This document shows, one piece after another, positions 1,331-64,000 of a DNA stretch of 64,000 bases. The translations under genes were made by a program, and so were the position numbers. The notes beneath the pieces were generated by a model. The model did no database searches and had not been told where the DNA came from. It was given only the letters and a program-made list of their open reading frames with translations. Origin of the DNA: Eledone cirrhosa (Eukaryota); the NCBI GenBank assembly GCA_964016885.1, contig OZ024742.1:83328001-83392000 (forward strand), read 5' to 3'. How positions within the stretch are numbered: position 1 is the first letter of the stretch; each line of letters opens with the position of its first letter.

Positions 1331-1899
1331 TCTATTTTTAGATAGATACATACATATAACGTCGCGCCCTTATAATATCTGTCTGTATTTCTGGCTGTCT
1401 GCATTGCGTCACTTCCTACAATTCGCTCTGCGTCCAGAACGCGCCCTTATAATATATGTCTATATGTCTGGCTGTCTGCTTCTTCCGGTTATTCTGTCAC
1501 CCTTGCTCAAGACAAATCTCACACTCATTCCCCAAACAGTTGGTAAGTGACTTATTTATTAAGTGTCAGTGCTGGATTAAAATTAAGTTTGAGAGCCGGA
1601 ATAAAAACACAAATGATCGCTGCCGGATTAAAATCACTAATGACTAAAAATATGTGTCAGTACCGGATTTAAAATAATAAATGTCAGGGCCGGATCACTA
1701 CTGACACAGAGCTTTGTTGAAACGCTGATTTTTTTTCCGCAGTAGAATGGTCGCTATCCTTCTTCCTTCGGTTTAACTCATTCATCTCAGACAGAGGTAC
1801 ACGATTCGACTTTTATTTATATAGATATACACCCACATGCACACACACATGCGCGCGCACACACATATATGTATCCTGCTTACTAGTTATTAAAATTAA

Positions 1900-3340
1900 A
1901 AGATAGCCGGACAATATTTGGTCAACTGCCAGATTAAAAAATATTTAGTAGATTGCCGGGTATAACGACACTTGGTAGATTGCCGGATTAAACTATATTT
2001 GGTACAATGCCGCATTAAACGATATTTGGTAGAGTATCTGATTAAATGATAGCCACACAATATTTGGTAAAGTGCCAGATTAAACGATATTTAATAGATT
2101 GCCGGATTAAACGATATTTAGTAGATTGCCGGATTAAACGATATTTGGTAATATGCTAGATTAAATGATATAGGGCAGTATGGCGGATCAAGTGATAGCT
2201 GTACATTATTTAGACTGCCAGGTTAAAAGATATTTGGTAGAGTGACGGATTAAACGATATCTTTACAATATTTAGTCGAATGCTGGATAAAACGATATTC
2301 GGTAGAATGCCGGATCAAACAATAATTTGGTAGAATGCCGGATTAGATGATATTTATTATAATGTTGTATTAAACGATATTTAACGATATTTGGTAGAAT
2401 ACCGGATTAAACTATATATTGTTAGGTGCCGGATTAAATGACTACCTACAATATTTGGTATGTGCCAGAATAAACGATATTTGGTAGAGTGACGGATCAA
2501 AAATATTTGGAAAAGTGCCGGATTAAACGATATTTCTAAAGTGCCAGATTATATGACATTTGGTAGAATGCCGGATTATATGATAATTTGGTAGAATGCC
2601 GGATTAAATGATATTTGGTAGATTGTCGGATTAAACGATATTTAATAGAATGCCGGATTATATGGTATTAAGGTAGAGTGCCGGATTAAACGTTATTTAA
2701 TAGAATGCCGGATTGTATGATATTTGGTAAAACGCTCGATTAAACGAGGTATTAAATTATATTAAAGTGACGGATTAAATTATATTTAATAGAATGCAGG
2801 TTTAAATGATTATTATGGTAGAGTGCCGGATTAAACGATATTTGATAGAATGCCGGATTATATGATATACGGTAGAATGCCGGATTAAAGGATATATGAC
2901 AGAGTTCCAGATTAAATGATATCCGTAGAATATTTGGTAACGTGCCGGAATAAACAATATTTAGTGGAGTGCCGGCCAAACGATATTTGGAAGAATACCG
3001 GATTAAGCGATATTTAATAGAGTGCCAGATTAAACGTTGTTTAATAGAGTGCCGGATTAAAAGATATTTAATCGAATACCGGATTAAACGATATTTGCTA
3101 GAACACCGGATTAATGGTAGAGTGCCGGATTAAAAGATATTTAGTAGAGTTCGGATTAAACAATATTTTTAATATGCCGGATTAAACATTTTTTGTAGAG
3201 TGTTGGATTAAACGATATTTGGTAGAATACCGGATTAAACGACATTTGGTACAGTGCCAGATTAAATGATATCCGTATAATATTTGGTAAAGTGCCGCAA
3301 TAAACTATATTTGGAATAGTGCCGGATTAAACGATATTTT
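1900..3340. repeat. 27-bp minisatellite array (consensus about gccggattaaacgatatttggtagagt)
   Basis: Period 27 read directly (gccgg at 2101 and 2128). Roughly 50 diverged units; related units at 1570-1700. Confidence 0.95.
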
Positions 3341-3459: not shown

Positions 3460-3660
3460 TGGTAATTTTGCAGCATCGGTAAAACGTCAGACTTCATGCT
3501 CTCGCAGCATAGTGCTACGTATCTTTATGTTCTAATTTTAAATCCCACTGAAGTTAGCTTTGCCTTTTATCCTTACGGGATCGATAAAGTAAAGTACCGC
3601 TGACGACTTTCCCTTCCTCCAAGGTGGTTGACCTTGTGACTTAATCAGAAACCATTATTT
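3460..3660 (+). mobile_element. tRNA-derived SINE with Meta-like central domain, degenerate
   Basis: gcagcatcggtaaaacgtc head, then aaatcccactgaagttagctttgccttttatccttacgggatcgataaagtaaagtacc. Confidence 0.8.
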
Positions 3661-12915: not shown

Positions 12916-12983
<68 letters not shown>

Positions 12984-13196
12984 AAAAAATAGAAATAAAT
13001 AAAATACAAATAAATACAAAATAAAAAAATTAATCTCTGCAGTTCTGTTTACATGCCAACACAAGAGTAAGAATGAGGGGCTCATTCTACTGACATGGCT
13101 TTTAAAATAAAGCTTGTTTGCATAATTGCAAACAAATCGTATATTATTGTTAATATTCGAAAAACTCAGATTACATTATATATATATATATTTTAT

Positions 13197-13265
<69 letters not shown>

Positions 13266-13333
13266 CAAGGTCTAGCAAATAGAGAAAAAGTTTTTGAATA
13301 AATTTTTTAAAATTCGCTGTACTTACTATATGT

Positions 13334-13413
13334 GCCTTTACCGCGGTTTCATGCCAGAATAAACGGAAAATCTAAGCGGATTTCCATTGAGAAGGGAGCA
13401 ATCTTCAGAAAGC
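13334..13413 (-). ncRNA. Type I hammerhead ribozyme (family C)
   Basis: gcttt CTGAAGA t-tgc...ggaaatcc-gctt-agattttcc...gca-t GAAA ccgcgg TA aaggc. Stem III palindrome ACCGCGGT; GUA site. Confidence 0.85.
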
Positions 13414-13995
13414 TCTTCTCCCTCGGATAATATAAAATTCCCGAGTTCAAATCACAAACTGACGCCATACAAAACCATTCCCAAATGAGAGCGGATGATG
13501 AAAGAAATAATTCTGTCTGGTGCCGTGTGCAAAGACAAAAGGCAGAGTAGATAGATCAATGTCCTACCACTAGAAAAAGCAGCAGTCCAAACGGCCAAAA
13601 TTTTATATCTACCTTAGGGGGAGATCAATAATAATAAAGTATGAATTCCTACGTGTAAAAAATGCATATAGGGAAACAAGTATTATCCAACCGTATGCCA
13701 ATGTGGTTCTATGGTGGGTTAATAAATTAACGAGCCAAAACATATAATATCAGCGACTTTTTTAAAATTTATTTTAAAACCTTTTTTCTATTTGCTAGAA
13801 GATTGCTCCTCTTCTCAATGGAAATCCGCTTGGATTTTCCGTTTATTCGTGAGCATGAAACCGCGATAAAGGCACATATAGTAGGTACAGTGAATTTTTT
13901 AAAATTTATTTTAAAACCTTTTCTCTATTTGCTAGAGCAAATAGAGAAAAGGTTTTAAAATAAATTTTAAAAAATTCGCTGTACTTACTATATGT

Positions 13996-14077
13996 GCCTT
14001 TATCGCGGTTTCATGCTCACGAATAAACGGAAAATCCAAGCGGATTTCCAGTGAAAAGGGAGCAATCTTCAGAAGGC
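13996..14077 (-). ncRNA. Type I hammerhead ribozyme (family C, second copy)
   Basis: gcctt CTGAAGA t-tgctc...gagca-t GAAA ccgcga TA aaggc. A third, 5'-broken copy lies at +13798..13873. Confidence 0.8.
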
Positions 14078-14392
14078 TCTTGTCCCTCGGAGAATATAAA
14101 ATTCCCGAGTTCAAATCACAAACTGACGCCATACAAAACCATTCCCAAATGAGAGCGGATGATGAAAGAAATAATTGTCTGGTGCCTTGTGCAAAGACAG
14201 AAGGCATGGTGCACAGGTCAATGTCCTGCCACTAGAAATAGCAGCAGTCCCAAACTTTTTCTCTATTTGCTAGACCTCGATTTTATATGTTCTGGCTTGT
14301 TAATTTATTAACCCGCCATAGAACCACATTGGCATACGGTTGGATAATACTTGTTTCCCTATATGTATTTTTTACACGTAGAAATTCATACT

Positions 14393-14438
<46 letters not shown>

Positions 14439-15664: not shown

Positions 15665-15671
<7 letters not shown>

Positions 15672-16571
15672 CTTATTAAAAAATAATTCAGTGGATAGGA
15701 AATAGCAAAGCGTGGACTGAATTCCTAGCCATTGAGAAAATCACTGCCTCTGCGTCTGTGGCAAATTCAAAAAGAATCAATCACGTGACATCGAGGTCAA
15801 TCAGTGGAAAGTGGTTTGCTAATAAGACAGCGGCCTGCCTACTACCATAGCAGCAGTCATGGCCAATATTGCTCGACAAATAAAGTGATATTTTAGTAAG
15901 TAAGTTAATTTTATAATTGTCTTATTTTACGTCTCTCATATTATTGTTCTGCAACCCCATGCATTGAACCACAATGTTACTAAGACAAAACCTATATATT
16001 TGCTAGCATTGATATGCATCTGTATGTATATATATGTTACTAGATATTAATTATTTATAATTATCTCCAAATTATTTGTCGAGCAATATTGGCCATGACT
16101 GCTGCTATGGTAGTAGGCAGGCCGCTGTCTTATTAGCAAACCACTTTCCACTGATTGACCTCGATGTCACGTGATTGATTCTTTTTGAATTTGCCACAGA
16201 CGCAGAGGCAGTGATTTTCTCAATGGCTAGGAATTCAGTCCACGCTTTGCTATTTCCTATCCACTGAATTATTTTTTAATAGGTTTCCAGAGTCCTCGCT
16301 TTGCCTGGAAACTTCGCTGAGAATAGACTTCCCTGACGACGGAATGTTTCTCCATATCTTCTTCGGAAAATATATTTACTCCATTCCAGAAACTAATTAG
16401 TTGGAAGTAATATTTTAGTAAGTAAGTTAATTTTATAATTTTCTTATTTTACGTCTCTCATATTATTGTTCTGCAACCCCATGCATTGAACCACAATGTT
16501 ACTAAGACAAAACCTATATATTTGCTAGCATTGATATGCATCTGTATGTATATATATGTTACTAGATATTA

Positions 16572-16576
<5 letters not shown>
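15665..16576. mobile_element. Non-coding hammerhead retroelement family A (522-nt monomer): inverted 5' piece plus ~1.3 direct monomers
   Basis: -15665..15883 is the reverse complement of about 16070..16285. +15883..16576 repeats with period 522. Flanked by (TA)n. Confidence 0.9.
16327..16408 (+). ncRNA. Type I hammerhead ribozyme (family A)
   Basis: acttcc CTGACGA c-ggaatg...ttc-ttcg-gaa...cattcc-a GAAA ctaattag TT ggaagt. Stem III palindrome ACTAATTAGT. Confidence 0.9.
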
Positions 16577-16616
<40 letters not shown>

Positions 16617-20759: not shown

Positions 20760-21800
20760 GATTTTTTAAATACATTATTTGTTTTTTAAATCTGATTCTA
20801 TGGTATCTTTTTCGGTGTAATCAATTTTTAATATCAATTGATTTGTTGTCAATTTTGAACGTAAAATGCCAAAACAGGATTGTCGGCAACGTTCTTTCTA
20901 TCAGTATACAATCGAGCGCAGTGCTGAACAAAGGGTTAAAAACATCATCGACATTTGGTGCAGAGGAAATGCTAATGAATGAAAAGTTGGTTGAAAGGCT
21001 TTCATCGGTGGTTAAATCCTTTCTGAAGATAGAGTAAGTCGTGGAAAATCTTGTTATTGAAGAATTGGAACACTTTGCGCAAAAATAAACTGAATTGGAT
21101 TTTCGAAGAAGCTTGTAAAAGCAGTTTGACACGAACTGGATGAAGACCAAAAAACTTGCCGCCATGGCGTCTGATCTTCACTTTTTTGTATAATAAAACC
21201 GACCGATTTTTCGATCGTAATCTATGAAACGAAAGTGGATCCGGTACATTGGTTATACCGAGATAAAGCTCCTTAACACTTCCCAAAGCGTAGGCTGCAA
21301 GCAATGGGGTTAGGTGACTGTTTTGTTGTCCGTAATCGGATTAATTCTCTACATCTTTCTGAACTAGGGCAATGCAGCCTCAACAGGAAATTATTCTCAA
21401 TGCATAAAAACTGCAACGTATGTGTCTAACATTGTTCAATGGGAAAGTTTCAATCCTCTTGCACGACAATACTCAACCGCATATCGTACAAGCAACGTTC
21501 CAGAAACTATGAACTCATCCAGCATACTCACGTATTCTTTCACAAACTGACTATTTACTACGTTTTCAAGCATTTGGACATCTTCCTGCAAGGAAAAGAC
21601 TTCTTAAAACAAACAGCCGCAAGAAACGTCTTCGAAAATTCATTGCTGCCAGAACTTCAGAAAATTGGTTATTAATTCTGTTACCAAAATTAATAAACAT
21701 GTATCTGGTTGGCAAATATGCATATATTACAATGATTTTTATTTCGATAAATAAAGTTTATTCTGTATTTGTATTGAAATTAATGTTTAAAAACCTGCCA
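20760..21800 (+). mobile_element. Decayed mariner (Tc1/mariner) transposon
   Basis: Frameshifted remnants: DRFFDR...KWIRY and ILLHDNTQPH...FKHLDIFLQGKDF. Confidence 0.7.
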
Positions 21801-26943: not shown

Positions 26944-27950
26944 GGATATCTTCTTTCTTCTTTAGTTCTGTAACTCGTGAGGATGTCGGAGGGGGCCCGT
27001 ATTGACATTCGACGTTTCTAGGGTATTTTTTTAAAACCTGGTGTTGCCCATTTCTTCTACAGGACTCAATGCAGCAGATTTATACAAGAGAAAGATAGAG
27101 AATGAGAGAAGGATTAAAAATGAAAAAGATATATAGAGGAAGAATCGATCCCAGTCCTAGACTGGTAATTTTTATCGACCTGAAATGGATGAAAGCAAAG
27201 TTATCCTTGGTATCAAGGATTTACTCTATCTTAATAAGTGATTCGATGGGCTTCTATCTTTTAAATTAATAAAAAATTATATAAACATTTTCTTATCATC
27301 AGCAATGAAATTTGACGATGTACGGCGTTTATATTTATTCAACGGTGACGAAATTAAATGGAATTGATTTGAATGACGGAACGAAATCAAGATATGCAAT
27401 TCAAGTTATCTCGACGTTTGGCTTCTGTTCCGAAACAAAAAGAAACATACTAAAATTCCTAGAAAATTTTAATTTATGGCAATATCGATAAAACTATTAT
27501 TGATTTCTTACTAAGGTACAAGGTCAAATCTTTATAGGAAAAGCTTAATGAGGTTAGCAATTTTTTCTTCATAAATAAAGTAAATTAAGTGAAATTCTTA
27601 CAATCGTAACGAAAATTGGCTCACCTTTTCAGGGGTTGCCTAATAATAAACTCAAAGCTAAGATTATTAATGTACAGTTCACCTCTAATCTCGAATGTCT
27701 AAAACATTTTTACGCTGTTCTCCCAAATGAAAACCTCGTAATTTTTGTAAGTAATGAAATTATAGGAGAGATAATCAAACATTTCCCGTGACTATAATTA
27801 TAAGAATAAGTGACGTTCAAAAAATTCATTTCAGGGTTAGTTTCTTTCTTTGAGGATGGGCGGGGGTGAAATGTGGATGATAAAATTTAGTAGGTGAATT
27901 TACATACAACAAATCTACACACACAGATAAATACACATGTAGCACATATG

Positions 27951-27993
<43 letters not shown>

Positions 27994-28004
27994 ATATATA
28001 TATG

Positions 28005-29692
<1,688 letters not shown>

Positions 29693-30732: not shown

Positions 30733-31557
30733 TGGCTGCCAACTCGTTTTCGAGTACAGCCACTATTTTATATCCTTGTAGGAGAACCCCTACCGATGGG
30801 CTGAAAGAGTGCGACTTTTTAGTCCAGCCAGCGACTTGAAAGCTCTGGTACAAACACTACACTTGTGACAATTATTGACACATAGTGCTGGGCCCATGGT
30901 ACCATGTGACGACAAGTGCAGAGAGATCTCCATGTATAAAGCAATGCCTGTGCCGTGAAACTTTTATAGTGAGCAAAGGCACTTCACAAATCCAGTCCTA
31001 CTCTCTTAACCAAGATGATATTTACCAAAAAGAAGAACAAGTCAACATCATTGGATACCATCAGGGTTGCAGGTGTTGTATCTGAGTTTTCCTTCTCCTA
31101 GAATTCTGCCTTGACAAAGGCTAAGGGGTCATCTTTCCCGGTGATTTTGGATGGCCATTGACTCTTAAGAACTCCTTTGCCCTTTGACAGGTTTTGTTTT
31201 TAGTCCTGCAGGATGTCCAAAGTCAGCCTCCTCACCAAGAAACCTTAGTGGGGTTGCCAGTTTAGTCGCCAATGACCCGACCATGAGACAGGTTGTACTG
31301 GGATACATGTTATAAGTAGCACCAACTGGTGACCTGACATAATATATATATATATACATATATATATATACATACATATACATATATACATATACATATA
31401 TATACACATATACACACATATATACACACATATATACACACATATATATACACATACACGTACATATATATATACTTATATATGTATATTTATATACATA
31501 TACACACACATATATATATATATATACACACATATATATATATATATATTTATATAT

Positions 31558-31630
<73 letters not shown>

Positions 31631-31693
31631 CACATATATATATATACACATATACACACATATATACACACATACACACACATATATACATAC

Positions 31694-31724
<31 letters not shown>

Positions 31725-31889
31725 ATTAGTATATCTACCAACATATGTATACAGATGTATACCCATGCTAGCAAATATATATGTTATGTCTTAGTACCTT
31801 TGTGGTTCTATGCAGGGGGATGCAGAACAATTATATGAAAGATGTAAAATAAGAAAATTTTAAAAATTAACCTACATACTAAAATTTTC

Positions 31890-31971
31890 ACTCCAACTAA
31901 TTAGTTTCTGTAAGGGAATAAATATAGTTACGCAACACAACTATAGAGAAGTCCTTACGTCATCAGGGAGT
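31890..31971 (-). ncRNA. Type I hammerhead ribozyme (family B)
   Basis: actcc CTGATGA c-gtaagg...tatagtt/aactata...ccttac-a GAAA ctaattag TT ggagt. Confidence 0.9.
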
Positions 31972-32461
31972 CTATTCTCAGCTAGGTTCCCAGGCAATGC
32001 GCGGACACTAGGAACCCATATAAAAATAATAATTCAGTGGATGGAACAAAGCAAGTGGGGATTAGATTCCAGGGCACTGAAAAAATTCACTTCCTACTTG
32101 GTCAGTGGCAAATTCTAAAGAATCAGTCACGTGACACTGAGGTTAATCAGTGAGGAGTGGGGTGGTATTATGACAAGGGCCTAACTACTACCATGAACCA
32201 TAGCAGTAAATTTCGGCAAGTTTTGCTCAACAAATAATTTGTAGATAAATATAGAGAATTAGTATATCTACCAACATATGTATACAGGTGTATACCCATG
32301 CTAGCAAATATATATGTTATGTCTTAGTACCTTTGTGGTTCTATGCAGGGGGATGCAGAACAATTATATGAAAGACATAAAATAAGAAAATTTTAAAAAT
32401 TAACTTACTAAAATTTACTAAAATGTGTCCGCGCATTGCCTGGGAACCTAGCTGAGAATAG

Positions 32462-32543
32462 ACTCCCTGATGACGTAAGGACTTCTCTATACTTGAGTTG
32501 CGTAACTATATTTATTCCCTTACAGAAACTAATTAGTTTGAGT
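32462..32543 (+). ncRNA. Type I hammerhead ribozyme (family B, inverted copy)
   Basis: Same motif with one stem I mismatch (tgagt). Confidence 0.8.
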
Positions 32544-32591
32544 GAAAATTTTAGTAAGTAAGTTAATTTTTAAATTTTCTTATTTTACGTC

Positions 32592-32635
<44 letters not shown>

Positions 32636-32733
32636 GAATAATCGAGTATCGAAAAATCGGCGCACGAGTTCACGATAAACAAAATTCGACATGAGTGGCA
32701 TATTTATAGATAGATATATATATACATATATAT

Positions 32734-32786
<53 letters not shown>

Positions 32787-33135
32787 CAAACACACACACA
32801 TACATATACACATACACATATACATATACACACACACATAAAAATATACATACATATACATACATACATGTGTACATATATATATATACACATATATATA
32901 CCAAGACTGCTGCTATGGTAGCAGGCAGGCCGCTGTCTTATTAGCAAACCACTTTCCACTGATTGACCTCGATGTCACGTGATTGATTCTTTTTGAATTT
33001 GCCACAGACGCAGAGGCAGTGATTTTCTCAATGGCAAGGAATTCAGTCCACGCTTTGTTATTTCCTATCCACTGAATTATTTTTTAATAAGTTTCCAGAG
33101 TCCTCGCTTTGCCTGGTAACTTAGATGAGAATAGT

Positions 33136-33215
33136 CTTCCCTGACGACGGAATGTTTCCATATGTCTTCTTCGGAAAATATATTTACTCCATTCCAGAAA
33201 CTAATTAGTTGGAAG
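33136..33215 (+). ncRNA. Type I hammerhead ribozyme (family A)
   Basis: cttcc CTGACGA c-ggaatg...cattcc-a GAAA ctaattag TT ggaag. Confidence 0.9.
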
Positions 33216-33657
33216 TGATATTTTAGTAAGTAAGTTAATTTTATAATTTTCTTATTTTACGTCTCTCATATTATTGTTCTGCAACCCCATGCATTGAACC
33301 ACAATGTTACTAAGACAAAACCTATATATTTGCTAGCATTGATATGCATCTGTATGTATATATATGTTACTAGATATTAATTATTTATAATTATCTCCAA
33401 ATTATTTGTCGAGCAATATTGGCCATGACTGCTGCTATGGTAGTAGGCAGGCCGCTGTCTTATTAGCAAACCACTTTCCACTGATTGACCTCGATGTCAC
33501 GTGATTGATTCTTTTTGAATTTGCCACAGACGCAGAGGCAGTGATTTTCTCAATGGCTAGGAATTCAGTCCACGCTTTGCTATTTCCTATCCACTGAATT
33601 ATTTTTTAATAAGTTTCCAGAGTCCTCGCTTTGCCTGGTAACTTAGATGAGAATAGT

Positions 33658-33737
33658 CTTCCCTGACGACGGAATGTTTCCATATGTCTTCTTCGGAAAA
33701 TATATTTACTCCATTCCAGAAACTAATTAGTTGGAAG
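33658..33737 (+). ncRNA. Type I hammerhead ribozyme (family A)
   Basis: Same motif one monomer downstream. Confidence 0.9.
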
Positions 33738-34019
33738 TGATATTTTAGTAAGTAGGTTAATTTTATAATTTTCTTATTTTACGTCTCTCATATTATTGTT
33801 CTGCAACCCCATGCATTGAACCACAATGTTACTAAGACAAAACCTATATATTTGCTAGCATTGATATGCATCTGTATGTATATATATGTTACTAGATATT
33901 AATTCTTTATATATATATATTAGAAAATAGAATAGCTTTCACCATATTTTTGACTAAAGAAATTTTAGCCTGATAGTGGGCATTAGAACCCTCAGATAAA
34001 TGGAAAAAGATGAGTATTG

Positions 34020-34757: not shown

Positions 34758-34809
34758 GATAGATATAGATAGGTAAATATACACGGGTGTGTATGATTGT
34801 GTATAGAAG

Positions 34810-35282
34810 ATTATATTAATAAGAGGAATTCCAACTTTGTCTGATTTACTCGTTTTATTTACAATCCTTTAAAATATATATAATGGTATTATAATGAAAT
34901 AGTATGATAGAATATTAAATTCTAAGTGTTAATTGAACAAGTACTTTCATGCTTTCGCAATCTTCAGGTTCATGATATGTGGTGACAGTCGAGTTTGCAA
35001 TTTTCAACTGTAATGAGATGGGTAAATTTCCTACCTTTTATACATTTTATACAGAGAAAAGTGGCTCCAGAATGCAAAGCCCTGTAAACTGTATTTCGAC
35101 CAATCAGTGTGTAGTTTCACTGAATTACTAAAGCTGATTGGTTTAAGCGTCACGGCTGGTTGAGCATGCTAACGGCCAATAGTCATATCCAACGTATCAA
35201 TTGTTTTGCTTTTTGAAATGATGAAAATAGCATTTTCTATTAATCATCACCATCAACATCACTTTTATTATTATTATTATGG

Positions 35283-35314
<32 letters not shown>

Positions 35315-36340
35315 AGTGGTCGTGGTCATAGTGGTAGTAGAAGTAATACCCCTAGGCGTTATTATTGTTCATTTAGCTTGGGTTTGAATTTATCAATAAA
35401 ATTCTTTTCTTTGCTTTTTCTCTTGATTTCACTTGGGCTGTGTAATTTGTATAATGGGAATATTATAAATATTCCCTGACCACATGTTGCCAAGTGGCCG
35501 CTTAGGGGTATCTGACGGACATTTGGGTCTCTGATTTGTTGACGGTGTACCCGTGCACGTTCCGATAGTGCATTTCCAGTTTCACCGACATATAGTTCTT
35601 CACAATTAGGGCATTTAATGCAGTAAATTAGATTTCTGCTTTTGCAGTTCATATTTGCATTTGGGAATATTTTTCCAGTTTTTGTTTTCATATATTGACC
35701 GGCGTGTATGGATTGACATGTGCCGCATCGATTATCATTGCATTTAGATACAGTGAGTGATTGGTCTTTGTTGTTAAGGTCAAACTTTGCTTTTGTTAGC
35801 AATTGCTTCAAATTTTTTGGCTGTCTTTTACTAAGAGTCAAAGATCGATCTGTGATTAAGCCTTTTAATTCGTTACTTTGAGCAATGATCGGTAGGTTTG
35901 CTTTGGCAGTGTTGAAGATATTCTGGTGACATGGGTTGTGTGTCATTATAAATGGTATGACCAGTTCTTGGTTTCTTCTTCCTTGGGTTGTTCTAAGTTG
36001 TTGTATAGGTATTTTTATAGCCCGCTGTATGCCATTTTCTATAAGTAGAGATGGGTATTTTTGTTTGAGCAAAAATTCTCTTAGTTCTGTTAGGCGTTTG
36101 TACCTGGTATTCGTATCTTCTACAATGGTACAAATTCTTCTGGCTAGGCAGTATGGGATGTTGCGTTTTGTATGAGGTGGATGGCACGACTTAAAATTCA
36201 GATATTGATGGGTGTCTGTGTGTTTATAATATATATCCGTGGTAATGGTGGTGTCGTTTTTGATTATCATTATATCTAGGAATGGTAATTTGGTCCTACT
36301 CATCTCTTTTGTGAATTGGAGAGATGGGTGTAGGTTATAT
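34810..36340 (-). mobile_element. 5'-truncated Penelope-like element: RT thumb, GIY-YIG endonuclease and 3' region
   Basis: Open frame 35362-36340: LPFLDIMI, DIYYKHTDTHQYLNFKSCHPPH, CNDNRCGTC, NLIYCIKCPNCEELYVGETG..RARVH, KFKPKLN. Confidence 0.93.
34934..34972 (-). ncRNA. Minimal type I hammerhead downstream of Penelope ORF
   Basis: tgaac CTGAAGA t-tgc-gaaa-gca-t GAAA gtac TT gttca. GNRA loop, palindrome AGTACT, same strand as ORF 35362-36381. Confidence 0.92.
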
Positions 36341-36867
36341 AATACTACTACACCAAACGACCAGCCCTGTCCATTGTTCAATTCGTCAAATATAGATTAA
36401 AATAGGCACTCCCAAAAATTCTTATTAAGATACAATAAGCCATATACTCATTGTATTCTCATTAAAAACCTTCTATATACTTGTTTACCACAAATTGAAT
36501 TGCCATCTGTCATATACTACCCCCACTCTTCTTCCTTTCTTACAACTATTATAAACTTTTCAATTTTTCTGATTTTTTCCAATGTATCCAATATCTCTGG
36601 AGAAGTGACAACTGATTATACATTTGCTATCGAATACTTGCTAACATTATATGATTACGCAAGCAGCGATACATAGGTATTCCGTCTGTTACAGAAACAT
36701 ATGTCAACACCTAATAAATTCCTTTATAAAAGCACTTTCATTTTATATTCATCTTTTCTACATTTTCTCCGGAATATAATTTATACTCGTTGAGCAAACC
36801 TACACGTGCGCTGTTCATCTCTAACGTGACAATATATTATCCCTACATTATTGATAACTTGAAATTT

Positions 36868-37184: not shown

Positions 37185-38135
37185 TATTTCGTTCGTTTCT
37201 GAATTAGCAAGATTCTTTATCTGAAAACGTGTGTTGAAACCGATATTGTTATACTTTGGGAGGGTCATGTGGCCAATAAGAAACACACGCACCAGTAGTT
37301 TTCACTTCAATTTATTATAATAAATTTATAAATTTAGGAAATTATAAATTTCCGGTTGGTTGGTTGGTTCCACAACCAGATGATTGTTCATATATTGTCA
37401 AAGTTCTTTCGTCACACATTCTGTGACCTCTCCAGTGACTGGGGATTCTTTTCTTTGTTTTTGTGCCTCTCCTTTGTTCTGTCCTATGCCATCTTGTTTT
37501 TGTGTGTGTCGTGTGCTTAGTTTGCGCATGTGTTACACCCGGGTGTCTGTGTGTGTTTATATTTGCTTATTTATTTGTTTATTTACATGTTACCGGTTGG
37601 TTGTTTGTTCTATGTGTGTGTGTGTTTTCATTTTGTCATTAATTGTAAGTTGTGATGTTGCTTTCCATTCATGTTTTCTATTTAATTTGGTTGGAGTTCA
37701 TTTATGTGTATTGCCTCTGTGATTTGTCTAAACATTGCATCTTTTCTGTGTGTAGATTCTATTTTTATTTCTATGTTCTCTAATTTACCCTTATGTTCTA
37801 TTTTAGCATGTTGGTAGAGTACAGATGATTCTTTACTATCTTGAAGCTCTCGCCAGTGTTCATTTGTCCGTTCCCCTATACTACAAGCTGTCTCACCTAT
37901 GTACACTATATTCTTATCTCTACATTGTCCTTCAGTACATCTTATGCTATATACTACATTTCTAGTTTTACAGTTAATATGGGGGCATAATTTACAGATT
38001 ATACATTTCTTATCTATACAAGGAGGTCTTTGAAAAGGGTACGTATTGCTAATAAGTGTTTTTATGGAGGTACCTGATCTTTCTACTATCTTAATATTGA
38101 CTTTATGTTTATCTAGGGCCCTTCTAAATGTGTAA
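37185..38135 (-). mobile_element. Penelope-like 3' fragment (GIY-YIG domain, different subfamily)
   Basis: CIDKKCIIC, NVVYSIRC..C..VYIGETACSIGERTNEH, RQITEAIHI at 37682-38130; bounded by (TA)n. Confidence 0.88.
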
Positions 38136-38262
38136 GCTATATATATATATATATACATATACATATACATATACATATATATATACATATACATATACAT
38201 ATACATATATATATATATATATATACATATACACATACACATACATATACATATATACACAT

Positions 38263-38331
<69 letters not shown>

Positions 38332-38553
38332 AACTTACACAAACATGCCCATATGCAGGTACATATGAACGCACGTACACACAGCGATATGCATACAAAC
38401 GAACGGTAACTCTAAATATAAATTAAAGTCTGAAAGAATTACCTTTTAATGAATTCCCTTTTCTTTCAACCAATGACCTCCACCCATCCCACTCGCCACC
38501 CTCTCCTACCACCTGAAAAGATATAAATACCACAACATTTATTTTGGAAAGCC

Positions 38554-53039: not shown

Positions 53040-53680
53040 GGAAAACCTAGGTACATTCATAAGAACTCTAGCCACCACCCCTCCACCCAGCATTTAAAAA
53101 TCTCAGTAATAACATCAGTAAGAGTGTTTCCACCCTCTCTTCTAGCAAAGCCATATTTGACAGGGCAGCCCCCTACTACAACATAATCCTAAGCAACAGT
53201 GGCTTCTCCACGAGAGTCATTTACTTGTCAGATCACCGCCCTATATCCAGGAAGAAAAAGACTAGACACAAAGCCGTCGTGAAGGTCGCTCCACCATTCA
53301 CACTCAATGTGAAGAACAATCTAGATAGAAAATTCCTAGCTCTCCTAGATTTTCACTCTCCTGTAGGCCATATATACTGACAAATATTCAACCGCCATAT
53401 AGTGATAATAGGCTACTCTTGTTCCAGTAACATCACCAACAAACGCAAAAGCCTTCCACCTTACATATGCTTAAGCAGAAGGTCAGAGGCATGTTCACCG
53501 GATCAACAGCGCAACACTCCATCGGTGATATATTTAACAGAAGTGACCTCTACTAACCAGAACCACAAATCTGAAGCTTGGACTTATCTCGGATTGACTG
53601 AGAGCCGGTTCAAAAGCCGTTTCCTGAATCACGAAACAATCTTGAGACATCCTGACTATGTTGAAAAATAAATCTCATTT
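53040..53680 (+). mobile_element. Decayed Naiad-like Penelope fragment
   Basis: RVSTLSSSKAIFDRAAPYYN, PPFTLNVKNN, IFNRH..GYSC, YLGLTESRFKSRFLNH; homologous to 28620-29200. Confidence 0.85.
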
Positions 53681-62819: not shown

Positions 62820-64000
62820 TTGAAGACTAAAATACAAAGAGGGCTCGATAAGGATAAATATATATCAAATTCTATTAAGGATTCTAATGCCGTGCACGTC
62901 CATTCCGACAAAACTGGCAACCTATATCAAGTGGAGCGCAGTACTTACCACCAACTACTGCATAATGCTGTAACTAAGGATTACCGTAAAACTTAAAACT
63001 AATCGGTGCGTCATTAATGAAATCGACGATGCTGGGTTTAAAATCACCTCTGATTTCAACATCTTGGACCCCATTTCTCCCCACCTTACCCTGAAGGATC
63101 ACAAATCCAATTTTCCGAACAACCCCTCCATTCGGCTTATTAACCCGACGAAGTCCGATTTAGGTAGACTTAGTAAAAGGATTCTTGATAGAATTATACC
63201 TGAAATTAGAAGTTTGGCGCCTATTGCAGTGTGGAACAATTCTTTCGCGGTGATTGATTGGTTCAACGGCATATGCAACAAGTAACATTGCCGTTTTATC
63301 CAATTCGACATCAATAATTACTACTCCTCCATCATTTACCACTTCTCCTTAGAGCTATCAATTTGGCTAAAACACTCACAGTGGTTAAGGATTTCGAAGT
63401 TGATGTCATCCTCAATGCCCGTAAGTCGGTGATTAATTTCGACGACTCTATTTGGATTAAAAAATCTAATAGTACCCTATTCGACGTTAGTATGGGCGCC
63501 AGCGATTCTGCCGAGGTTACTGATTTTATCGGCCTTTTCCTTCTTTTCTCTATCAAGGACGAATTCCCCAACGTGGGCGGTGGTTTGTACCGTGATGATG
63601 GTCTTTTGACTATGACTAAGTGCGGCCACGTGCTTGCGACAGGTTCAGAAAAGAACTCACAGCCTTCTTTAAAGGCTTCAACTTCTCTATACAGGTTGAG
63701 GCCAACCTCTGGGTCGTTAATTACCTCGACGTTATCCTCAATTTAACGACTGGCTTGTATTACCCGTATAGAAAGCCAAATGATACGCTTAATTACATAA
63801 GTAAGCATTCTAACCATCCTGCCAGCATAACCAAGAACCTGGTAAGAAACGTTTCTCTGAGGCTTTCCCGTCTATCTACTAACGAGCATACTTTCAACGA
63901 CCATTCCACATATTACGATGAAGCTCTTGCTCGGAGTGGATTTGTCGATAAGGTAGCATATACAGAGTACGAGAATAGACCTAGAAGAAATAGATCCCGA
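62818..64000 (+). mobile_element. Naiad-like Penelope element RT region (runs off window), after (AAT)n
   Basis: SDKTGNLY, TLKDHKSNF..RLINPTKSDLG, FIQFDINNYY, FDVSMGASDSAEV, GLYRDDGL, YRKPND..HSNHP; stops and frameshifts. Confidence 0.92.

What the first reader, a model, noticed from the sequence alone, without database searches (positions are those of the whole stretch)
31721..33907. Sister retrozyme-like families A (522 nt) and B (~533 nt) show compensatory covariation across the ribozyme
Seen: stem I is (a)cttcc/ggaag(t) in A and actcc/ggagt in B. Stem II is ggaatg/cattcc in A and gtaagg/ccttac in B. The distal hairpin is ttc-UUCG-gaa in A and tatagtt/aactata in B. The core and the ACTAATTAGT stem III are invariant apart from the free N7 (C vs U). 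Units are tandem, non-coding and carry one hammerhead each. Inference: the structure has been under selection. Cleavage at consecutive ribozymes (after 33210 and 33732) would release a 522-nt monomer that could circularise, as established for retrozymes.
Basis: partly seen in the sequence, partly recalled or inferred. Interest (0 to 1): 0.88.

Follow-up and report, generated by a model that had tools for sequence, protein, structure and literature searches.

The report
Ribozyme retroelement family riding Penelope machinery
These are two young copies of a protein-free jumping repeat of about 520 bases, present over ten thousand times in this animal genome, whose hammerhead-ribozyme fold shows compensating base changes and whose insertion pattern matches that of a Penelope-type retrotransposon, which likely copies it, possibly from a self-cut RNA circle that has not yet been observed.

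Summary
A (522-nt period) and B (533 nt) belong to one radiation of non-coding hammerhead units: 21 clusters, 10,846 intact cores genome-wide. Covariation is real: at least five independent double changes in stem II. Corrections: stem I differs by a compensated one-pair indel; B here has one good ribozyme (minus strand) plus a damaged inverted copy, so only A could release a monomer; the core is non-canonical (C·A at the base of stem II, GUU site, palindromic stem III favouring dimers). Insertions sit in (TA)n, are 5'-truncated and end at two fixed sites about 115 nt apart. Of 55 back-to-back insertions, 41 use one site per arm and none uses the same site twice. A young Neptune-like Penelope element in this genome follows the same rule (10 of 10). 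All units and both arms of an insertion mostly share one haplotype, as expected from re-reading one monomer or circle. No copy was attached to a Penelope ORF; the partner was not identified; cleavage, expression and circles are untested. Verdict: new family of animal non-LTR retrozymes. This scan noted the same two-site layout before in other families and genomes.

The parts
31342..31707 (.). (TA)n-rich target into which the B minus arm is inserted
31708..31719 (-). Six extra CT repeats beyond the two present inside units; likely slippage at the start of reverse transcription at site 2
31720..32416 (-). B arm 1: unit positions 8-533 then 1-175, ending at site 2
31890..31971 (-). B hammerhead with intact core; predicted cut after 31895
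32154..32159 (-). B mid-unit strand CACTCC, complementary to the 3' strand of stem I (candidate lock)
32425..32600 (+). B arm 2, inverted: unit positions 420-533 then 1-63, ending at site 1 in (TA)n; 8-nt filler 32417-32424 between the arms
32462..32543 (+). B hammerhead of the inverted arm, with one broken stem I pair and a broken distal hairpin
32901..33911 (+). A arm: positions 213-522, one full unit (33211-33732), then 1-179 ending at site 2; (TA)n on both sides
33136..33215 (+). A hammerhead 1; predicted cut after 33210
33226..33262 (+). Conserved hairpin just 5' of site 1 (site 1 is about 33271)
33324..33375 (+). Long hairpin with compensatory changes just 5' of site 2 (site 2 is about 33389)
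33472..33478 (+). A mid-unit strand CACTTTC, predicted to pair with the post-cleavage head GGAAGTG (candidate lock)
33658..33737 (+). A hammerhead 2; predicted cut after 33732

Best explanation
A and B are young insertions of two subfamilies of a non-coding hammerhead repeat that is likely a non-autonomous Penelope-like retroelement (non-LTR retrozyme), likely copied into (TA)n by a Neptune-type reverse transcriptase/GIY-YIG protein, probably from a self-cleaved monomer that is re-read or circularised. Shown: dispersed young copies, 5' truncation, (TA)n targets, two fixed 3' ends, one per arm, shared haplotype within an insertion, exact junctions, covarying helices. Inferred steps: a tandem copy is transcribed; two neighbouring hammerheads pair through the palindromic stem III and cut after GUU; the monomer is ligated; the protein cuts (TA)n and both DNA ends prime synthesis inside the RNA, one at site 1 (position 61-63) and one at site 2 (175-179), each just 3' of a hairpin; synthesis runs through the junction to give tandem units; the two cDNAs join head to head, or one alone is kept.
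For: Ends at two sites in (TA)n. 41 of 55 two-armed A/B insertions use site 1 plus site 2, 14 have one unclassified end, 0 use one site twice; 10 of 10 classifiable pairs among 39 loci of other subfamilies agree. A young 775-aa RT plus GIY-YIG element shows the same rule in 10 of 10 pairs, the same CT slippage, a palindromic stem III, a mismatch at the base of stem II and U at the cut site. Two internal start sites on both strands are shown in vitro for a Penelope protein (PMC11167929). Concordance at common polymorphic sites: same arm 516 of 545 (A), 459 of 468 (B); opposite arms 243 of 264 and 419 of 453; different loci 60% and 69%. An array with 10 full units has 0.6 private changes per unit. 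176 of 176 junctions found by pattern have no indel at the cut site. Three of 70 B arms stop exactly at the cut site (about 0.4 expected). Circular folds are more stable than shuffles, z -4.8 and -4.6.
Against: No RNA evidence of any kind. No autonomous partner with sequence similarity: two Neptune-like families tested, neither matches. The core is weak on paper (C·A, GUU); only 1 of 9 predicted Xenopus dimers cleaved (bioRxiv 10.64898/2026.07.22.740005). For the Anolis element ribozyme cleavage is dispensable in vitro and uncut RNA is the main template (PMC11167929). Some arrays are not uniform: the terminal segment of L042 lacks a change shared by all 10 full units; units 2 and 4 of L064 share several private changes; L066 has a divergent terminal segment. 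The 108-nt A hammerhead region alone folds no better than shuffles (z -0.18). The autonomous element shows the two-site rule too, so the rule does not need a circle.
Confidence: 0.6

Rival explanations
1. Same element class and same Penelope-type insertion, but the template is the uncut linear tandem transcript. The ribozyme trims or limits transcripts and no circle is needed; long arrays arise later by tandem duplication.
For: PMC11167929 (uncut RNA is the dominant substrate; ribozyme mutants still insert). Non-uniform arrays L042, L064, L066. B terminal segments agree with internal units at only 141 of 167 polymorphic cells against 459 of 468 between internal ones. Few arms exceed three units (2 of 64 A, 1 of 70 B).
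Against: Repeated 5' truncation would erode unit number unless tandem copies are regenerated. Terminal segments are overall no more divergent than internal ones (1.5% against 1.2% in 10 arms). Helices of the ribozyme were rebuilt by compensation at least five times. Three B arms end at the cut site.
Confidence: 0.28
2. The unit is the pseudo-LTR of an autonomous Penelope element that I did not sample; the tandem copies are its truncated ends.
For: Unit length and end behaviour resemble a Neptune-like pseudo-LTR. Only about 250 of over 10,000 sites were inspected and only 9 protein queries were used.
Against: 0 of 178 loci have an arm joined to a same-strand ORF fragment; two loose hits lie 675 and 737 nt away. 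Arms longer than a unit continue into another unit. The 39 short-stem II variants are nearly all deletion copies of the same family.
Confidence: 0.08
3. A satellite or DNA-level repeat whose hairpins are incidental.
For: Tandem units; Rfam finds nothing.
Against: Dispersed on many contigs, fixed 3' and scattered 5' ends, one-strand catalytic core (no antisense core), G never at position 17 in 145 copies, covariation with G·U intermediates.
Confidence: 0.02

Closest known systems
Animal non-LTR retrozymes (Cervera and de la Peña 2020, PMC7229834; Li, Clavereau and Pollet 2026, bioRxiv 10.64898/2026.07.22.740005)
   Same: Non-coding tandem units, one type I hammerhead each, low GC, thousands of copies, structured monomer, autonomous Penelope elements in the same genome. 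Axolotl ribozymes also have a weak or palindromic helix III, a mismatch at the base of helix II, and cut best as dimers.
   Different: Unit 487-571 nt, above the 170-400 nt of the tested RNAs though within the 51-972 bp range of Li et al.; extended stem II with internal loop and distal hairpin; C·A and GUU; a conserved strand predicted to block stem I, whereas most animal retrozyme circles were predicted to leave the ribozyme free; RNA not shown here.
Endonuclease-bearing Penelope-like elements, Neptune type (Craig et al. 2021, PMC8557442; Arkhipova et al. 2013, PMC3846280; Frangieh et al. 2024, PMC11167929)
   Same: 5' truncation, partial tandems, inverted head-to-head copy, a tail at one end only, two internal start sites, microsatellite targeting, hammerhead before the tail.
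   Different: No ORF; the tail is about 112-118 nt rather than 30-40 (48 nt in the local autonomous family); the whole element is one repeat unit.
Plant LTR retrozymes and hammerhead viroids (as described in PMC7229834)
   Same: Predicted self-pairing that blocks the ribozyme in the monomer.
   Different: Type I rather than type III ribozyme; no LTR architecture; lock is only 6-7 bp and untested.

Membership tests
Animal non-LTR retrozyme | Short tandem units, each with a type I hammerhead | tested here: met
   104 distinct cut-to-cut units of 487-571 nt, arrays up to 11 units; at this locus met by A only
Animal non-LTR retrozyme | No protein-coding capacity, not attached to an RT ORF | tested here: met
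   59 and 84 aa maximum; 0 of 178 loci joined to an ORF fragment; a sample, not a census
Animal non-LTR retrozyme | Conserved catalytic core and helices I-III | tested here: met
   10,846 intact cores; covariation; C·A and GUU are departures from the canonical core
Animal non-LTR retrozyme | Self-cleavage of the transcript | not testable with these tools
   needs in vitro transcription
Animal non-LTR retrozyme | Monomeric linear and circular RNA in vivo | not testable with these tools
   needs northern blot and RNase R; genomic signs only
Animal non-LTR retrozyme | Target-site duplication longer than 4 bp when present | tested here: inconclusive
   ends lie in (TA)n, which hides any duplication
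Penelope-like element (non-autonomous) | 5' truncation, partial tandem and inverted head-to-head copies | tested here: met
Penelope-like element (non-autonomous) | Tail at one end only (two start sites) | tested here: met
   41 of 55 pairs, none same-site; 10 of 10
Penelope-like element (non-autonomous) | Sequence shared with the pseudo-LTR of an autonomous partner | tested here: inconclusive
   no similarity to two Neptune-like families; other families not surveyed
Autonomous Penelope-like element | RT plus GIY-YIG ORF | tested here: not met

The most novel reading that the evidence does not exclude
The RNA circle itself is the template: a dimeric Penelope protein primes from both ends of the cut DNA at two fixed sites and reads the same circle round and round, and the circle carries two built-in locks against re-cutting, a stem III that works only as a dimer and a conserved mid-unit strand that captures stem I. 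That would give a sequence-level answer to how animal retrozyme circles stay closed, and a genomic read-out of rolling-circle target-primed reverse transcription.
Probability: 0.25. Interest if true: 0.72.

Novelty: new member of a known kind. Interest (0 to 1): 0.46.

Why it matters
How animal retrozymes are copied into DNA, and what keeps their circles from re-cutting, are stated open questions (PMC7229834 discussion; Li et al. 2026). This family offers a large young sample with fixed start sites, an active-looking autonomous element with the same end rule in the same genome, natural compensatory variants, and a candidate lock helix, so each step can be tested with a 550-nt construct. The class itself is known, and this scan has met the same layout in other families.

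Tried and rejected
Rfam at gathering score: no match in the window. RNA evidence: no RNA holder listed; four unlabelled contig runs laid on the unit cannot show strand or ends, and a second organism's contigs covered only parts at depth 2-7, which I do not use. Metagenome scan for the stem III pattern: 0. Idea that site 2 ends carry a base absent from internal A units: rejected, C is the majority internally too (56 of 62). Idea that terminal segments come from a different template in general: not supported, with exceptions listed. Partner search: short-stem II pattern gave 39 hits, nearly all deletion copies; 775-aa family and a second Neptune-like family show no similarity; the Penelope ORF beside L092/L211 is on the opposite strand and is a neighbour. 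Lock helix as strict compensation: weak, because the longer head pairs as well with the older mid strand (-8.5 against -8.1 kcal/mol) and the change arose once on the tree. One search used a miscounted structure and is void; one search replaces it. The bacterial promoter scan is uninformative. Fold-back copying as the general source of the inverted arm: does not fit, since either arm can be the longer and inner breakpoints usually differ; L042 may be such a case. Searches of earlier notes by place and by sequence gave nothing.

Full report
Observation. The repeats are there. A has a period of 522 and B of 533. Hammerhead cores lie at 33141 and 33663 on the plus strand (A), at 31966 on the minus strand and 32467 on the plus strand (B), and a third A copy lies at 16333. 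Three points need correcting. Stem I of A has one pair more than B, a compensated indel. B is a 697-nt minus arm with one ribozyme plus an inverted 176-nt arm whose ribozyme has broken pairs. A spans 32901-33911, 1.94 units. Rfam reports nothing at gathering score.

The family. The genome is 3.0 Gb and rich in microsatellites; I did not identify the organism. Searches gave 2,227 and 2,970 first-look candidates for A and B, of which 40 each were scored. Exact patterns give whole counts: 12,272 for stem III with its flanks, 10,846 for an intact core with a long stem II, 7,639 for the site 1 motif; reversed controls gave 0. Full A units differ from their majority by 1.2% (56 units) and B units by 2.3% (29 units), so both are young, though these are best-match samples. 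104 distinct full units fall into 21 clusters at 92%; twelve representatives are 70-91% alike.

Covariation. On 20 chosen hammerheads, stem II, the distal hairpin and stem III keep 94% of 293 cells paired, with 7 of 15 pairs changed on both sides; no shuffle of 500 reached the score, and slid controls fell to 31-48% paired. Stem I was left out because of the indel, the distal helix depends on the alignment, and the structure was read from these sequences, so the controls flatter it. The tree gives a fairer count: in stem II, pair 2 goes from U-A to C-G, to A-U and on to G-C, and pair 5 from G-C to U-A twice, five independent double changes by parsimony. Stem III never varies and so says nothing by covariation. 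Outside the ribozyme, the hairpin before site 2 has 3 of its 7 apical pairs changed on both sides (12 representatives). Selection is therefore on the RNA of the copies that transpose; inserted copies decay.

The ribozyme is atypical. Among 145 distinct copies, 138 have C·A at the base of stem II, and the triplet is GTT in 133, GTA in 11, GCT in 1 and never GTG, which fits the recalled rule that G is not tolerated there. Stem III is a perfect 10-nt palindrome, +1.5 kcal/mol as a hairpin and -9.0 as a duplex. Axolotl retrozymes with a weak helix III and a U·U at the base of helix II cut poorly alone and well as dimers (PMC7229834, results read). I infer the same here.

Insertion anatomy. I mapped 40 A and 40 B loci after dropping overlapping fetches (L017-L019; L025, L029-L032). 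Arms are 5'-truncated at scattered points and end in (TA)n at position about 61/63 or 179/175 after the cut site. Of 55 back-to-back insertions, 41 have one arm at each site, 14 have one end elsewhere or unresolved, none has the same site twice. In 39 further loci chosen from position-ordered lists, both ends could be classified in 10, all site 1 plus site 2; 23 gave one end and 6 none. B ends at site 2 carry three or more CT repeats in 30 of 41 cases, up to 30, against at most two in all 37 internal copies, which suggests slippage at initiation. Each site lies just 3' of a conserved hairpin.

Link to Penelope elements. This layout is the known Penelope one: partial tandems, an inverted 5'-truncated copy, and a 30-40 bp tail at one end (PMC8557442, passages; PMC3846280, passages). 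In vitro the Anolis protein cuts and extends both strands and starts at two internal sites that bound the tail (PMC11167929, main text read). The window holds a truncated copy of a young family with intact 775-aa RT plus GIY-YIG frames and a CX4CxxC linker of the Neptune type. Its ten two-armed insertions that I fetched all have one arm at each of its two sites (nine called by script, one read by eye). It shows CT slippage and a minimal hammerhead with a U·U mismatch, palindromic stem III and U at the cut. It shares no detectable sequence with A or B, nor does a second family, so it is a model for the partner and not shown to be the partner.

Template: circle or linear. Units in one arm agree at common polymorphic sites in 516 of 545 cells (A) and 459 of 468 (B); without the two long arrays, 186 of 215 and 149 of 153. 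Opposite arms agree in 243 of 264 and 419 of 453; different loci in 60% and 69% (L010 and L011 dropped as duplicates). So both arms and all units mostly derive from one source haplotype. The long array L042 has 10 near-identical full units. All 176 junctions found by pattern have the same length at the cut site, and 3 of 70 B arms stop at that site, a weak sign that cut RNA existed. Against a simple circle: L042's terminal segment lacks a change found in every full unit, L064 units 2 and 4 share private changes, and L066 has a divergent terminal segment. A homogeneous linear multimer plus later duplication explains these as well. I put the re-read monomer or circle at about two to one over the linear template.

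Candidate lock. Circular folds of A and B beat shuffles (z -4.8, -4.6; 30 shuffles each). In 8 of 12 representatives the first bases after the cut pair mostly with a strand near position 265 rather than forming stem I; 19 of 21 cluster representatives keep at least 6 contiguous pairs there. The clade with a longer head changed this strand on the same branch, but that is one event and the energies show tolerance more than rescue. The authors of PMC7229834 found most animal retrozyme circles predicted to leave the ribozyme free and asked what blocks it (discussion read). This strand and the dimer-only stem III are two testable answers; both are predictions.

What is known. Animal non-LTR retrozymes are established, and Li et al. 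argue that they are non-autonomous Penelope derivatives (introduction to discussion read; 35 genomes, four invertebrates; 1 of 9 dimers cleaved). My searches found no paper on this family or on a strict one-site-per-arm count in retrozymes; subscription papers are not covered, and the supplements of PMC7229834 and of the preprint, which I could not see, may list related elements. PMC8969392 was seen as passages only. Earlier notes of this scan describe the same two-site layout in other families; I had the pattern before reading them, and they are not independent support.

Verdict. Real feature; new family of a known kind; covariation confirmed and extended; Penelope-type mobilisation strongly indicated; cleavage, expression, circle and partner unshown. 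Interest 0.46.

Noticed in passing
window 15668-16590: Third A insertion, 98% like the main one, with an inverted 5' arm whose outer end is at unit position 407 rather than site 1.
   Followed up: yes
window 34771-36396 (-): 5'-truncated copy of a young Neptune-like Penelope family (intact 775-aa copies elsewhere), with a minimal hammerhead at about 34935-34971 and a site 2 end.
   Followed up: yes
window 12950-14420: Another non-coding hammerhead repeat with long stem II, stem III ACCGCGGT, internal inversions and (TA)n ends; shares a CAT(T/A)GAACCAC tail motif with A and B.
   Followed up: partly
L006 (minus strand, around 355-1321), also L189, L190: Tandem 483-nt hammerhead units with stem III ACCGATCGGT and the same tail motif, next to an A copy: a further retrozyme-like family.
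   Followed up: partly
window 3600, 4713 (-), 12760, 15418, 29634, 38560, 39740 (-), 52187 (-), 52552: Nine more hammerhead-like cores of other families in 64 kb; across fetched loci at least ten palindromic stem III types occur.
   Followed up: no
window 1895-3339: 27-nt minisatellite array followed by a hammerhead-like core at 3600.
   Followed up: no
window 33490-33510 (unit position about 285-297): TGTCACGTGATTG is nearly invariant across subfamilies and also present in a contig of a second organism; possibly a promoter element (recalled E-box likeness, untested).
   Followed up: partly
L213-L232: Second young Neptune-like family (frames up to 796 aa) whose 3' region runs into long TG/TA microsatellite with no hammerhead seen within 900 nt in six copies printed.
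   Followed up: partly
window 37682-38422 (-), 20821-21177 (-), 27943-28620, 53072-53380, 62974-63746: Further reading-frame fragments that look like Penelope RT or GIY-YIG pieces; only the first gave a weak Pfam hit.
   Followed up: partly
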